A stretch of DNA of 51,421 nucleotides from Candidatus Magasanikiibacteriota bacterium (GTDB lineage Bacteria > Patescibacteriota > Patescibacteriia > Magasanikbacterales > GWA2-37-8), in contig JAHFHX010000007.1 of assembly GCA_023246655.1 (NCBI GenBank), positions 1 to 51,421 of the forward strand, in the 5' to 3' direction. Within the stretch, counting starts at the first letter, position 1; each line of letters begins with the position of its first letter. Position numbers and translations under genes: made by a program. Shown piece by piece: positions 1,864-47,081 of the stretch. The notes below the pieces were generated by a model that made no database searches, was not told the DNA's origin, and was given only the letters and a program-made list of their open reading frames with translations.

Positions 1864-3706
<1,843 letters not shown>

Positions 3707-44482: not shown

Positions 44483-44556
44483 GCACGCCTAGCTCAGTTG
44501 GTTAGAGCACCTCGTTTACACCGAGGGGGTCAGGGGTTCGAATCCCTTGGCGTGCA
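44483..44556 (+). tRNA. tRNA-Val(TAC)
   Basis: Acceptor gcacgcc/ggcgtgc, anticodon arm cctcg-ttTACac-cgagg, ggttcgaatcc; promoter TTGACT-17-TACTAT at 44441-44469. Confidence 0.95.
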
Positions 44557-44573
44557 CTGATATTGGCATACGT

Positions 44574-45746
44574 ATGCAGGATGAGCGACCTGTCGTTCTC
44601 CATAAAGGTATTTATAAACCAACCGCCACCACTGCTGAGGCGGTGTTTATGATTACCGGGATGACTATCGGCGCTGGGATTTTAGGTATTCCCTTTGTGG
44701 TTTCACGGGTAGGAATTCTCATTGGAGTAAGCTATATAATCATTCTGGGTATCGTAATGTTGTTTTTAAATGTAATGATTGGCGAGATTATCGCTCGAAC
44801 AGACGAAAGCCTACAGCTTCCGGGACTGGCAGGTAAATATCTTGGGTCCCACGCGAAACAACTACTTACCATCACTACCACTTTTGGGGCAGTGGGGGCA
44901 CTCCTTGCCTATATTATTGGTGAAGGCAAAGTTTTGGCAACGTTATTTGGCGGCGAACCTGTTAGATGGAGCATTATTTTTTGGTCAATTGGAAGTGCCT
45001 TTATTGTAGCCGGACTTAACCGCATAAAAAAAGCCGAGAAAATTCTAAGCAGCACGGTTATTGTTCTTATTCTTTTATTATCGCTATATCTTTTACCACA
45101 TTTTAAGGCTCCTAACCTTAGTTATGTAGATCTCAGCGCGGTATTTTTGCCCTACGGCGTCATTCTGTTTGCGCTTCATGGGGCGCCGGCGATTGCGGAG
45201 GCCCACGCTTTGCTGCCTCGTGATCCTGGCCGATTTCAGCGAGCGCTTATTATTGGCACACTTATTCCAATTGCTGTGTATGTACTATTTGCTGTTGCCG
45301 TAGCGGGAGCACAAGGATTGCTAACCACCGAAGTAGCCACAGTGGGCTTGGGACAGCGATTTGGTGCTGGTGTTTTAGTAGTGGCTAATATTTTTGCAGT
45401 TTTTGCCATGTGCACCGGGTTCATGGGTTTGGGTACCGCCCTTAAAGAAACATTAGTGTGGGACCACGGTTTGAGTAATTGGTTAGGAACGTTTTTAGTT
45501 ATTTCCGTACCGCTGCTATTATTCCTAGCTGGATTTCATAATTTTGTGAATATTCTAAGTATTGTTGGTGGTCTATTTATTGGTTTGGAAGCTGTGGTGA
45601 TGGTGTTGGTATATTGGCAAGCCCGAGTTACTGGAGTGCTACCACCGTCACGCTATGGTGCACACTATGGGCTTCTCATAAGCGTGCCCGTATTTATTAT
45701 CTTTGGGTTTATTACAATGCATAGTATTTTTAAATTGTTATTTTAA
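44574..45746 (+). CDS. Aromatic amino acid permease family (Trp/Tyr-like)
   Basis: GMTIGAGILGIP, multi-TM, YGVILFA. Confidence 0.85.
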   Translation: MQDERPVVLHKGIYKPTATTAEAVFMITGMTIGAGILGIPFVVSRVGILIGVSYIIILGIVMLFLNVMIGEIIARTDESLQLPGLAGKYLGSHAKQLLTITTTFGAVGALLAYIIGEGKVLATLFGGEPVRWSIIFWSIGSAFIVAGLNRIKKAEKILSSTVIVLILLLSLYLLPHFKAPNLSYVDLSAVFLPYGVILFALHGAPAIAEAHALLPRDPGRFQRALIIGTLIPIAVYVLFAVAVAGAQGLLTTEVATVGLGQRFGAGVLVVANIFAVFAMCTGFMGLGTALKETLVWDHGLSNWLGTFLVISVPLLLFLAGFHNFVNILSIVGGLFIGLEAVVMVLVYWQARVTGVLPPSRYGAHYGLLISVPVFIIFGFITMHSIFKLLF

Positions 45747-45748
45747 TG

Positions 45749-45881
45749 TACGCCGATGGTGTTCGTTGTTGGTCGGGTTTATGAGCCGGTGGTCGATCAA
45801 GCTGGTTACTCATCAACAACGTCCTTCTATCTGAATTTTATCTCGCGAGAAAATTCACTTCTGAACGAGCCACAGCGAGTA
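45749..45881 (+). promoter_or_regulatory. Candidate structured cis-regulatory RNA upstream of metK
   Basis: Nested stems cgttgttg/caacaacg, atgag/ctcat, ccggt/gctgg, tgaattt/aaattca, gttc/gaac. Confidence 0.5.
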
Positions 45882-45923
45882 AAGAAGATCCTTATTCAAA
45901 GTAATTGAAAATTTTTATTTACT

Positions 45924-47081
45924 ATGTCCGACAATTATCTATTCACATCCGAATCAGTCACTGAGGGGCATCCCGATAAAATTTGTGATCAAATTTCCGA
46001 TGCCGTACTTGATAATTTACTAGAGCAAGATCCAACTTCACATGTGGCGGTAGAATGCTTTACCACCACCGGTTTAGTTATTGTGGGTGGTGAAGTAACG
46101 AGTAGGGGGTATGTTGATGTGCAGAAAATTACCCGGAGTGTTTTAAATGATATTGGCTATACTGATCCGGCGTATGGTATTGATGCGGAGCACGCTGGTA
46201 TCCTGGTGTCAATTCATGAACAATCACCCGATATTGCCCAAGGGGTTAATAAAACAACTGTCGAAGAACAAGGAGCAGGGGATCAGGGGCTCATGTTTGG
46301 GTACGCTTGTAATGAAACTCCAGAACTCATGCCGCTGCCTATAATGTTGGCGCATCGGTTAGCAGAGCAATTAGCAATGGTTAGAAAAAGTGGTGAATTA
46401 AGTTATCTGCGCCCTGATGGCAAAACACAGGTAGCCGTTGAATATCAAGGAAATAAACCAGTTCGGCTGCATAATGTGGTGGTGGCTGCGCAGCATCATG
46501 ATACGGTCTCCTTAGAACAGATTCGTCAGGATATTACTCAACATGTTATTGAACCAATCTGTTCTCATTATATGGATGACAAGACACAGTTTTTTATTAA
46601 TATGACCGGTAAATTCGTGGTGGGTGGGCCGCAAGGTGACACGGGGCTTACGGGGCGTAAAATTATTGTAGATACCTATGGCGGTATGGGGCGACATGGC
46701 GGAGGCTGCTTTTCGGGCAAAGACCCCTCCAAGGTGGATCGTTCCGGCGCCTATATGGCTCGCTATGTAGCAAAGCACCTTGTCGCTGCTGGGTTTGCTG
46801 AACGCTGTGAATTGCAAGTGTCGTATGTTATTGGTAGGGCTGAACCCACGAGTATTAATATTAACACCTTTGGCTCTGGTAAATTAACTGATGAAAAATT
46901 AGTGGCAGCGATAAAAAAAGTATTTGATTTTCGTCCGGGAAAAATTATTGAACATTTAGATTTGCTTCGACCGATGTATCGTCCCACCGCCGCTTATGGC
47001 CATTTTGGTCGCGCTGAATTTCCGTGGGAGCATCTCAATAAGGTGGCACAACTTCAAGCAGCGGTTGCGGGAATGGCTTAA
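45924..47081 (+). CDS. metK: S-adenosylmethionine synthetase
   Basis: [46 protein letters not shown]. Confidence 0.98.

What the first reader, a model, noticed from the sequence alone, without database searches (positions are those of the whole stretch)
45749..45881. Multi-stem RNA upstream of metK: candidate SAM-sensing element of unrecognised class
Seen: 45764-71 pairs with 45814-21, 45781-85 with 45809-13, 45786-90 with 45801-05, a hairpin at 45832-57, gttc/gaac closing pairs, and a possible gggt/gtcc pseudoknot, ending about 40 nt before the metK ATG. Established: metK leaders commonly carry SAM riboswitches. I do not recognise SAM-I, SAM-II or SMK consensus here.
Basis: partly seen in the sequence, partly recalled or inferred. 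Interest (0 to 1): 0.7.

Follow-up and report, generated by a model that had tools for sequence, protein, structure and literature searches.

The report
Unclassified riboswitch-like leader RNA of metK
The first half of the flagged stretch is a real, conserved, folded RNA that sits in front of the SAM-synthetase gene in one order of ultra-small groundwater bacteria and matches no catalogued RNA family, so it is a good candidate for a new metabolite-sensing switch, while the second half is an unrelated repeated element.

Summary
Window 45755-45831 (77 nt) is a genuine structured RNA in the metK 5' leader. It has P1, a conserved internal loop (UGUU opposite UYC), P2, a short GGU/ACU helix and a variable P3. 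A covariance model finds exactly one copy per genome in 54 of 151 genomes of the window's order (three families). It finds none in 300 genomes sampled from the rest of the class and phylum. In 73 of 76 fetched loci metK starts just downstream; two of the other three are cut by contig ends and one is a false hit. Pairing is 84.9% against 72.2% in shuffles, and 23 of 29 pairs change on both sides. No Rfam 15 family matches at E<=10, and six full-text searches found no description. In 13 sister genomes without the element, a SAM-I riboswitch sits in front of metK instead. Best reading: a new riboswitch class, most likely sensing SAM. The ligand and the sign of regulation are untested.

The rest of the finding is different. 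The hairpin at 45832-57, the gttc/gaac pairs and everything up to 45904 belong to a repeat with five other copies in this genome. The nearest relative lacks it at metK.

The parts
45755..45759 (+). P1, 5' strand (GAUGG)
   Evidence: Pairs with 45827-31. In 35 homologues without an insert the third pair from the junction is C-G in 22 and U-A in 12, with none unpaired. P1 is 4-16 bp elsewhere, with many compensatory versions.
45760..45764 (+). J1/2 (UGUUC): conserved unpaired UGUU, then a variable base that covaries with 45821
   Evidence: In 75 homologues U is 100%, G 100%, U 81% and U 91%. Columns 20 and 124 covary (MI 0.92).
45765..45772 (+). P2, 5' strand (GUUGUUGG)
   Evidence: Helix 2 is 95.7% paired, and 8 of its 11 pairs change on both sides.
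45775..45778 (+). P2a, 5' strand (GGGU; family consensus GGU)
   Evidence: Pairs with ACU(C) at 45808-11. G-C is replaced by A-U in 7 of 76 rows, with none unpaired at that pair.
45781..45790 (+). P3, 5' strand (register ambiguous in this copy)
   Evidence: Helix 3 is 90.9% paired and 7 of 8 pairs change on both sides. The minimum-energy fold pairs 45784-90 with 45801-07. P3 is missing altogether in a short variant of the family.
45791..45797 (+). GGUCGAU motif in the P3 loop
   Evidence: Present in about three quarters of the 75 homologues. It is replaced by plain loops in many members of family f5, so it is not part of the minimal core.
45798..45807 (+). P3, 3' strand
   Evidence: As for P3, 5' strand.
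45808..45811 (+). P2a, 3' strand (ACUC); A45808 is invariant in the family
   Evidence: A 100%, C 92%, U 95%.
45813..45820 (+). P2, 3' strand (UCAACAAC)
45821..45826 (+). J2/1 (GUCCUU): conserved U-Y-C. In many relatives an extra hairpin (P4) is inserted here
   Evidence: U 95%, C/U, C 95%. Inserts of 19-40 nt that form hairpins occur in most f5 members.
45827..45831 (+). P1, 3' strand (CUAUC)
45829..45904 (+). Repeat element 'B' (hairpins 45832-57 and 45858-87). It is an inverted, decayed copy inserted between the aptamer and the metK start, and it is not part of the metK element
   Evidence: There are five other copies in this genome and more in relatives. In 14 of 19 copies the reverse complement ends in the ATG of an unrelated gene. 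The closest relative, G082, has no such insert at metK. Rfam gives no match.
45905..45923 (+). AU-rich stretch with a U-tract just before the start codon
   Evidence: A U-tract within 45 nt of the ATG is found in 54 of 73 metK leaders against 139 of 530 control genes.
45924..47081 (+). metK (S-adenosylmethionine synthetase), the gene controlled
   Evidence: Pfam PF00438, PF02772 and PF02773, E 1e-42 to 1e-67.

Best explanation
Window 45755-45831 is the aptamer-like core of a cis-acting RNA at the 5' end of the metK mRNA. I read it as a riboswitch of an undescribed structural class, confined to one order of Patescibacteria whose named relatives are titled Candidatus Magasanikbacteria.

Anatomy (shown): P1 closes a small, highly conserved asymmetric loop (UGUU on the 5' side, U-Y-C on the 3' side). 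Many relatives carry an extra hairpin in that loop, which makes it a three-way junction. P2 follows, extended by GGU/ACU, and is capped by a variable or absent P3.

Function (inferred): the conserved junction binds a small molecule tied to MetK. The most likely ligand is the product SAM, which would repress metK.

Output (inferred, and it varies by lineage): in many relatives a hairpin plus U-tract follows P1 directly and shares 2-7 nt with the outer P1 strand, so control there is probably by transcription termination. In short-P1 forms such as this window and its nearest relative there is no separate terminator. This genome also shows no Shine-Dalgarno signal. Control here is therefore more likely through access to the AU-rich start region or through P1 itself.

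In this window an unrelated repeat was later inserted between the aptamer and the start codon.
For: Structure:
- 76 aligned hits are 84.9% paired against 72.2% in shuffles (0 of 500 shuffles reach it). 23 of 29 pairs change on both sides. There are 302 compensatory cells against 106 in shuffles. Slid controls reach at most 58.4%.
- The 35 sequences without an insert are 87.7% paired against 77.3%.
- The top mutual-information pairs are the proposed helices.
- G-U pairs are frequent on the metK-sense strand (34, 41 and 59 rows at three pairs). They would be C-A mismatches on the other strand or in DNA.

Specificity:
- One hit per genome in 44 of 100 family genomes and 54 of 151 order genomes.
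- metK follows on the same strand in 73 of 76 loci, 13-354 nt from the hit. The exceptions are two contig ends and one false hit.
- 19 of 19 true hits of a strict pattern in 185,579 species genomes precede metK, as do 14 of 14 evaluable hits in metagenome contigs.

5' UTR position:
- Consensus -35/-10 promoters lie directly upstream in several loci.
- 18 of 76 loci have no upstream permease match in the flank held.

No known family.

Functional replacement:
- Of 88 order genomes with metK, 54 carry this element, plus 2 divergent ones found with filters off.
- In 13 of the 34 without it at the default search, SAM-I lies 40-240 nt upstream of metK.
- In the 17 genomes that have both RNAs, SAM-I is never at metK (tables; loci).

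Loss: G158 keeps the promoter and the P1 5' strand but has the aptamer deleted.

Output:
- U-tracts occur in 54 of 73 leaders against 139 of 530 control genes.
- 17 leaders have a hairpin plus U-tract that overlaps outer P1.
- The full-P1 and full-terminator states differ by 0.4-7.4 kcal/mol.

Background: invariant junction uridines fit the uridine-O4/sulfonium contacts described for SAM classes (PMC6914780, passages read). This is consistent with SAM binding, not evidence for it.
Against: - No ligand binding or regulation has been measured, and no RNA-seq run holds the locus.
- The element is linked to a single gene, so context cannot tell SAM from SAH, methionine or a protein partner.
- Where a terminator is present it overlaps the outer P1 3' strand. 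That is the geometry of an ON switch if the ligand stabilises P1, which argues against simple SAM feedback.
- P1 is 14-16 bp in many members, long enough to form without a ligand.
- Both P1 strands are unusually conserved in sequence, which hints at a further constraint such as a protein or an alternative pairing.
- This genome already has a SAM-I riboswitch elsewhere (contig C7:88694-88801, 57.9 bits).
- About 19 of the 88 metK-bearing genomes have neither RNA in front of metK.
- Alignments A5 and A6 were fitted to the model, which inflates the paired percentages somewhat.
Confidence: 0.55

Rival explanations
1. It is a riboswitch, but an ON switch. Ligand-stabilised P1, including its outer extension, acts as an antiterminator, so the ligand would be a signal to make more SAM, such as methionine (the substrate) or SAH.
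For: In 17 leaders the terminator's 5' strand lies 2-7 nt inside the outer P1 3' strand. In L180, L190 and L194 the overlap covers 5-7 nt of a 7-8-bp terminator stem, which is most or all of it. Both alternative helices covary. The two states are nearly equal in energy. A permease gene lies upstream of metK in most loci, which would fit control by substrate supply.
Against: Sister lineages put SAM-I, a SAM class that terminates when bound, in front of metK. The overlap is only 2-4 nt in most cases, so the aptamer and terminator can coexist in minimum-energy folds. Short-P1 members have no separate terminator. No natural methionine riboswitch is known to me (recalled).
Confidence: 0.15
2. It is a protein-binding (or otherwise trans-acting-factor-binding) leader rather than a small-molecule sensor, for example autoregulation by MetK or by an unidentified RNA-binding regulator.
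For: Both P1 strands and P2 are conserved in sequence beyond what pairing needs. P1 is long and stable without a ligand. The element serves a single gene.
Against: The pattern is the usual one for aptamers: a tiny invariant junction with freely varying peripheral helices (P3 present, absent or expanded; P4 optional). No conserved neighbouring regulator gene was seen in the loci examined. This was not searched systematically.
Confidence: 0.2
3. It is a constitutive structural element with no sensing role. A stable 5' hairpin would protect or shape the metK mRNA from the first transcribed base.
For: P1 starts within a few bases of the predicted transcription start.
Against: A stabilising hairpin does not need invariant unpaired nucleotides, a defined junction or a competing terminator. 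The swap with SAM-I in sister lineages points to regulation.
Confidence: 0.07
4. It is coding or belongs to the upstream gene. Either it is a leader peptide starting at the AUG in GAUGGUG (ORF 45756-45908, 50 aa), or it is the 3' UTR or terminator of the permease gene that ends at 45746.
For: An ATG-initiated 50-codon ORF exists here. The element starts 9 nt after the permease stop codon.
Against: 24 of the 75 real homologues have ACG in place of AUG. Indels in P3 shift the frame. The ORF has no Pfam hit. The element follows metK where there is no upstream permease match (18 of 76 loci), and promoters lie between the permease and the element.
Confidence: 0.02

Closest known systems
SAM-VI (Rfam RF02885) and SAM-III/SMK box (RF01767) riboswitches
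   Same: Both are small aptamers found essentially only in front of metK in one bacterial lineage. Both are built from helices around one central junction (PMC6914780, passages read). Members of the present family with the P4 insert also have three helices around one junction. Both have conserved uridines and a G next to the P1 end of the junction.
   Different: Neither Rfam model gives a match at E<=10. In SAM-III and SAM-VI the Shine-Dalgarno sequence is part of the aptamer (same paper). Here there is no SD, and this genome shows no SD enrichment (8% of 531 genes). The third helix is optional here. The conserved nucleotides and the host lineage differ.
SAM-I / S-box riboswitch (RF00162)
   Same: It occupies the same place, the metK 5' leader, in 13 genomes of the same order that lack this element. 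It is the natural functional analogue.
   Different: SAM-I is a four-helix junction of about 108 positions. It does not match this RNA. Both RNAs coexist in 17 genomes, always at different genes. The MetK proteins behind SAM-I are only 40-53% identical to this one, against 59-100% behind the new element.
Hairpin-with-internal-loop riboswitch classes (for example the NMT1/xanthine and THF-II motifs; recalled, not tested)
   Same: The overall design is the same: one long irregular hairpin whose conserved internal loop is the likely binding site, with dispensable distal parts.
   Different: The sequences and gene contexts are unrelated. No Rfam model matches.
pbuE-type adenine ON riboswitch (recalled)
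   Same: The 5' strand of the terminator overlaps the 3' strand of aptamer P1, so P1 and the terminator exclude each other.
   Different: The overlap here is only 2-7 nt, and the aptamer core survives when the terminator forms. The direction of control is untested.

Membership tests
Known SAM/SAH riboswitch classes in Rfam 15 (SAM-I, SAM-II, SAM-III/SMK, SAM-IV, SAM-I/IV, SAM-V, SAM-VI, SAM/SAH, SAH, SAM-Chlorobi) | Match to the family covariance model (sequence plus structure) | tested here: not met
   cmscan of all 4227 families gave nothing at gathering score in the window. Nothing relevant appeared at E<=10 in 45600-46000, and nothing on the element in 19 homologous leaders. The same tool does find SAM-I elsewhere in this genome and order.
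Riboswitch (generic) | Conserved structured domain supported by covariation, on the sense strand of a 5' UTR | tested here: met
   (covariation and directional G-U pairs). Promoters lie upstream and metK downstream.
Riboswitch (generic) | Consistent association with genes that make, use or transport one metabolite | tested here: met
   metK follows in 73 of 76 loci (two contig ends, one false hit), and in 19 of 19 and 14 of 14 true pattern hits.
Riboswitch (generic) | Direct, selective binding of a small molecule by the RNA alone | not testable with these tools
   Needs in-line probing, ITC or structure determination.
Riboswitch (generic) | Expression platform whose alternative folds couple binding to gene expression | tested here: inconclusive
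   A hairpin plus U-tract overlaps outer P1 in 17 of 73 leaders, and the two states are nearly equal in energy. This window and the short-P1 members have no separate terminator and no SD.
SAM-III / SAM-VI type | Shine-Dalgarno sequence embedded in the aptamer between P1 and P3 (PMC6914780) | tested here: not met
   The 3' junction and P1 3' strand are pyrimidine-rich (UCCUUCUAUC). No purine-rich SD lies in or after the element, and there is no SD signal genome-wide.
Repeat element B (this genome's repeated leader-like element) | Two hairpins plus CATATG, whose CAT is the start codon of a gene on the other strand | tested here: not met
   The copy at 45829-45904 keeps both hairpins, but it has TATCTG in place of CATATG and no gene on the minus strand. 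It is a decayed copy.

The most novel reading that the evidence does not exclude
The element is a new riboswitch class that turns metK ON. Its extended P1 would act as an antiterminator stabilised by a signal of substrate supply or methyl-cycle stress, namely methionine or SAH. To my knowledge a methionine-sensing version would be the first natural methionine riboswitch. It would work in bacteria that cannot make methionine and that initiate translation without Shine-Dalgarno pairing.
Probability: 0.13. Interest if true: 0.9.

Novelty: new variant of a known kind. Interest (0 to 1): 0.74.

Why it matters
If the RNA binds SAM, it adds a further independent structural solution for sensing this cofactor. 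It would be the first one specific to the candidate phyla radiation, and it sits in organisms that show no Shine-Dalgarno signal, so its output mechanism cannot copy the metK-specific classes SAM-III and SAM-VI.

If it binds something else, or turns metK on, it exposes an unknown control logic for SAM synthesis in bacteria that depend on imported methionine.

Either way the question is now directly testable. More than 100 natural variants are in hand. They define a minimal core of about 60 nt, two optional helices, a natural deletion (G158) and natural terminator fusions.

Tried and rejected
- Rfam at gathering score and at E<=10, on the window and on 19 leaders: no family.
- First pattern scan of genome contigs with a 16-mer: it was too unspecific. 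Nearly all of the 119 matching stretches were chance; only L069 and L114 (the G032 locus) were real members.
- The class-level hit G262 (27 bits with model R2, 33.8 with R3) lies inside a 424-aa ORF on the other strand with no metK nearby. I rejected it as false.
- Leader-peptide reading: rejected (see rivals).
- Antiterminator formed by J1/2 (GGUGUUC) or by P2 strands pairing with the terminator: considered by eye. There is no covariation and at most 6 bp, so I dropped it.
- A tertiary partner for the GGUCGAU loop motif: none found. The motif is absent from many f5 members.
- Sequencing runs: only four groundwater-metagenome DNA holders were listed and no RNA holder.
- Earlier notes of this scan: sequence look-ups found nothing. 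Word look-ups gave leads only.
- My automatic P1 and terminator calls contain errors. About 10 of 75 P1 picks are wrong, and several 'terminators' are really P4 plus the P1 strand. I say so where I use them.

Full report
**What is at the coordinates**

metK is at 45924-47081, with all three S-AdoMet synthetase domains. The gene upstream, ending at 45746, is an amino-acid permease of the Trp_Tyr_perm type. The 177-nt spacer is made of two unrelated modules. This showed up when the spacer was compared with 60 related genomes. Positions 9-86 and positions 83-158 of the spacer matched different places.
- Module A (45755-45831) is single-copy in this genome.
- Module B (45829-45904) has five other copies in this genome.

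**Module A is the metK element**

In four other genera, module A lies between a permease gene and metK, and the alignment already showed compensatory changes.

Distribution, from covariance models:
- A model built from five sequences (R1) found exactly one hit per genome in 44 of 100 genomes of the family, in 24 of 41 genera.
- A model built from 31 sequences (R2) found one hit each in 54 of 151 genomes sampled from the order: family f1 23 of 59, f5 28 of 58, f8 2 of 7, and the seven other families 0 of 26.
- Outside the order, R2 and a third model (R3) hit one of 150 class-level genomes. That hit lies inside a 424-aa ORF on the other strand and is false.
- None of 150 phylum-level genomes had a hit. 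These searches used Infernal's stricter filters.
- With filters off, two more divergent members turned up among 18 metK upstream regions from genomes scored negative.

Distribution, from a strict sequence-plus-spacing pattern:
- Over 185,579 species genomes it gave 24 hits. Nineteen are followed by the MetK N-terminal signature, and the other five are chance hits in unrelated phyla.
- The record titles of the true hits are mostly Candidatus Magasanikbacteria or Magasanikiibacteriota. Two are titled 'Parcubacteria', and several third-party assemblies are titled 'uncultured Gammaproteobacteria'. Given the 1.2-Mb chromosome of one of these, I take that last label to be unreliable.
- NCBI places Magasanikiibacteriota in the Patescibacteria group.
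- In metagenome contigs the same pattern gave 24 hits. Fifteen have the core features, 14 of those precede metK, and one is cut by a contig end.

**Gene association and position**

- In 73 of 76 fetched loci, metK starts on the same strand 13-354 nt after the model hit.
- The three exceptions are two loci cut by contig ends and the false class-level hit. In one of the cut loci, L069, the MetK N-terminus is still visible.
- A permease match lies somewhere upstream in 58 of 76 loci and is absent from the flank held in 18. The element therefore goes with metK.
- Several loci have a near-consensus promoter immediately upstream, such as TTGACA-17-TATACT in L069 and TTGAC(A/C/T) boxes in L154, L161, L170 and L173.
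- One genome, G158, keeps the promoter (TTGACA, 17 nt, TATAAT) and the P1 5' strand but has lost the aptamer by deletion.
- The RNA therefore begins at or near the first transcribed base. In the window itself I could not point to a convincing promoter, so read-through from the permease gene is possible here.

**Structure**

The consensus, taken from alignments A2-A6, reads 5' to 3':
- P1 5' strand, ending R-A-Y-G-G
- U-G-U-U-N
- P2 5' strand, G-U-U-G-U-U-G-G
- two variable bases
- G-G-U
- about three bases
- P3 hairpin
- U
- A-C-U
- two bases
- P2 3' strand, U-C-A-A-C-A-A-C
- N-U-Y-C
- optional hairpin P4
- about two bases
- P1 3' strand, starting C-Y-R-U-C

Pair counts:
- On 76 aligned hits the model structure is 84.9% paired against 72.2% in column shuffles (0 of 500 reach it).
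- 23 of 29 pairs change on both sides, with 302 compensatory cells against 106 in shuffles.
- Partners slid by 1-3 columns give 31.7-58.4%.
- By helix: P2 95.7%, P3 90.9%, P1 69.7%.
- The low P1 value is an alignment artefact. Many members carry a 19-40-nt hairpin between U-Y-C and the P1 3' strand, which the model skips.
- On the 35 members without that insert, P1 is 80.6% paired. Its five inner pairs are essentially always formed, and the third pair is C-G in 22 and U-A in 12, with none unpaired.
- A scripted search for the true P1 3' strand found helices of 4-16 bp with many different compensating sequences. About ten of the 75 automatic picks are wrong on inspection.

Other structural points:
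- The highest mutual-information column pairs are the proposed pairs, plus one more (columns 20 and 124) that extends P2.
- Invariant or nearly invariant unpaired bases are U-G-U-U in J1/2, U-Y-C in J2/1 and the A of A-C-U.
- A short variant lacks P3 altogether.
- In family f5 the GGUCGAU loop motif of P3 is often replaced by plain loops.
- The minimal core is therefore P1, the junction, P2 and GGU/ACU.
- G-U pairs are common and lie on the metK-sense strand, so the structure is RNA in the metK direction.
- Caveat: A3, A5 and A6 were aligned to the model, which favours its structure. The independent MAFFT alignments A2 and A4 show the same changes.

**The window's own copy**

| Part | Coordinates |
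|---|---|
| P1 | 45755-59 with 45827-31 (5 bp, as in its nearest relative G082) |
| J1/2 | 45760-64 |
| P2 | 45765-72 with 45813-20 |
| P2a | 45775-78 with 45808-11 |
| P3 | 45781/84-90 with 45798/801-07 |
| GGUCGAU | 45791-97 |
| J2/1 | 45821-26 |

The 81-nt core folds to -27.9 kcal/mol, z -3.13.

- 45764-71 with 45814-21 and 45786-90 with 45801-05 are right.
- 45781-85 with 45809-13 is not conserved: 45.9% paired against 45.7% in shuffles.
- The GGGU/GUCC pseudoknot is contradicted. All 6 real members in which the second G is A change the ACU partner instead, and 5 of the 6 keep the J2/1 CC.
- The GAAC of the 'closing pairs' and the hairpin 45832-57 lie in module B.

**Module B**

- B consists of two hairpins (45832-57 and 45858-87).
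- In 14 of 19 copies examined across five genomes it also has a CATATG. The CAT of that motif is the start codon of an ORF of at least 92 aa on the opposite strand.
- In this genome the genes led by it are a winged-helix-like protein, a HAD hydrolase, lumazine synthase, an SPFH protein and ribosomal protein S13.
- In relatives they include proteins whose N-termini I recognise by eye as ribosomal proteins and other housekeeping enzymes. That identification was not run through a tool.
- No Rfam family matches B.
- The metK copy is inverted relative to metK, has TATCTG in place of CATATG, and has no minus-strand gene.
- The closest relative (G082, MetK 87% identical) has only about 15-20 nt between the aptamer and the ATG. 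B is therefore a recent insertion, not part of the switch.

**Is the element known?**

- Rfam 15 gives nothing.
- Full-text searches found no description. The term sets were: riboswitch/Saccharibacteria/metK; riboswitch with candidate phyla radiation, Patescibacteria and S-adenosylmethionine; 'SAM-VII' and similar phrases; Magasanikbacteria with riboswitch (0 papers); and 'metK motif' phrases.
- Subscription-only papers and bioRxiv supplements were not searchable.
- PMC7736828 (passages read) only recounts that SAM-III was found by looking upstream of metK in species that lack known SAM classes. That is the same logic used here.

**What it senses**

The only associated gene is metK. I compared the order-level tables by hand:
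- 88 of 151 genomes have metK.
- 54 of those carry this element at metK, or 56 with the two divergent members.
- In 13 of the others a SAM-I match lies 40-240 nt upstream of metK on the same strand. Nine of these are above Rfam's cut-off and four are below. Four were confirmed in fetched loci.
- About 19 have neither RNA at metK. Rfam also finds no riboswitch in the 18 upstream regions scanned.
- Seventeen genomes have both RNAs, and in none of them is SAM-I near metK.
- This genome's own SAM-I is on contig C7. It is followed by a terminator and small ORFs, and then by tsaD and a PRPP synthetase gene.

So metK in this order is usually under leader-RNA control, and the new element and SAM-I replace each other there. 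This is the main, indirect reason to favour SAM. The junction's invariant uridines fit the uridine-O4/sulfonium contacts reported for all solved SAM classes (PMC6914780), but that is only compatibility.

**How it acts**

- The genome shows no Shine-Dalgarno enrichment: 8% of 531 long ORFs have a core SD motif at -20 to -5, with no positional peak. The 16S 3' end does carry CCUCC.
- metK leaders are enriched for a U-tract near the start: 54 of 73 against 139 of 530 control genes.
- My script found a hairpin plus U-tract in 38 of 73 leaders against 73 of 530 controls. Several of the 38 are really P4 plus the P1 strand.
- In 17 leaders the hairpin starts 2-7 nt inside the outer P1 3' strand.
- In five of these 17 the hairpin lies 79-139 nt from the ATG, so it goes with the aptamer, not with the start codon.
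- Forcing full P1 or the full terminator gives energies 0.4-7.4 kcal/mol apart, usually slightly in favour of P1.
- Minimum-energy folds of whole leaders show the aptamer followed directly by the hairpin.

This looks like a termination platform, but the overlap geometry is that of an ON switch if the ligand stabilises P1. A 14-16-bp P1 should also form without a ligand. In the short-P1 forms, including this window and G082, there is no separate terminator. P1 lies 13-20 nt from the ATG in several of them, so hindrance of initiation, or P1 plus the following U-rich tract, are the options. I therefore leave the sign of regulation open.

**Verdict**

| Claim | Probability |
|---|---|
| A real, conserved, metK-specific leader RNA | about 0.95 |
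| A metabolite-binding riboswitch | about 0.7 |
| SAM as the ligand, acting as an OFF switch | about 0.55 |

The element is not in Rfam or in the literature I could search. It is a new structural class of a known kind of element.

Noticed in passing
window 45829-45904; G000 C31:46422-46497, C13:73806-73882, C13:17350-17429, C2:48866-48932, C2:113449-113514; loci L002-L024: A two-hairpin repeat of about 70 nt whose reverse complement ends in CATATG, with the ATG starting unrelated housekeeping genes (S13, lumazine synthase, HAD hydrolase, an SPFH protein and others). This holds in 14 of 19 copies, and Rfam gives no match. Oddly, several copies have U-G wobbles in hairpin 1 on the strand opposite to the genes.
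   Followed up: partly
G000 contig C7:88694-88801 (locus L301:1195-1302): A SAM-I riboswitch (57.9 bits, above the cut-off) in the same genome, not at metK. It is followed by a terminator-like hairpin and about 530 nt holding only small ORFs (63-77 aa), and then by tsaD and a PRPP synthetase gene.
   Followed up: partly
window 1864-3705: The 16S rRNA match spans 1842 nt against a 1533-position model, so the gene carries roughly 300 nt of inserted sequence.
   Followed up: no
window 44547-45746 and homologous loci: A Trp_Tyr_perm-type permease gene lies upstream of metK in 58 of 76 loci across two families. It may be the methionine (or SAM) importer. The listed ORF start (TTG 44547) overlaps the tRNA at 44483-44556, so the true start is probably further in.
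   Followed up: no
L268 (G158:C1:26440-27152): A natural deletion. The promoter and the P1 5' strand are retained and joined directly to a U-tract before metK, with the aptamer gone.
   Followed up: partly
L144, L146, L147, L165, L211 and others, between the aptamer and metK: Unrelated GC-rich palindromic inserts, for example ones bounded by GTCATTGCGAG...CTCGCAATGAC, have landed between the aptamer and the metK start in several genomes. This spacer seems to be a hot spot for small repeats.
   Followed up: no
L262-L264 (family f8, genus g61): Here metK has no leader RNA. It follows directly, within 40-80 nt, a gene whose C-terminus resembles a pyruvoyl-type decarboxylase. This is by eye and was not run through a tool.
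   Followed up: no
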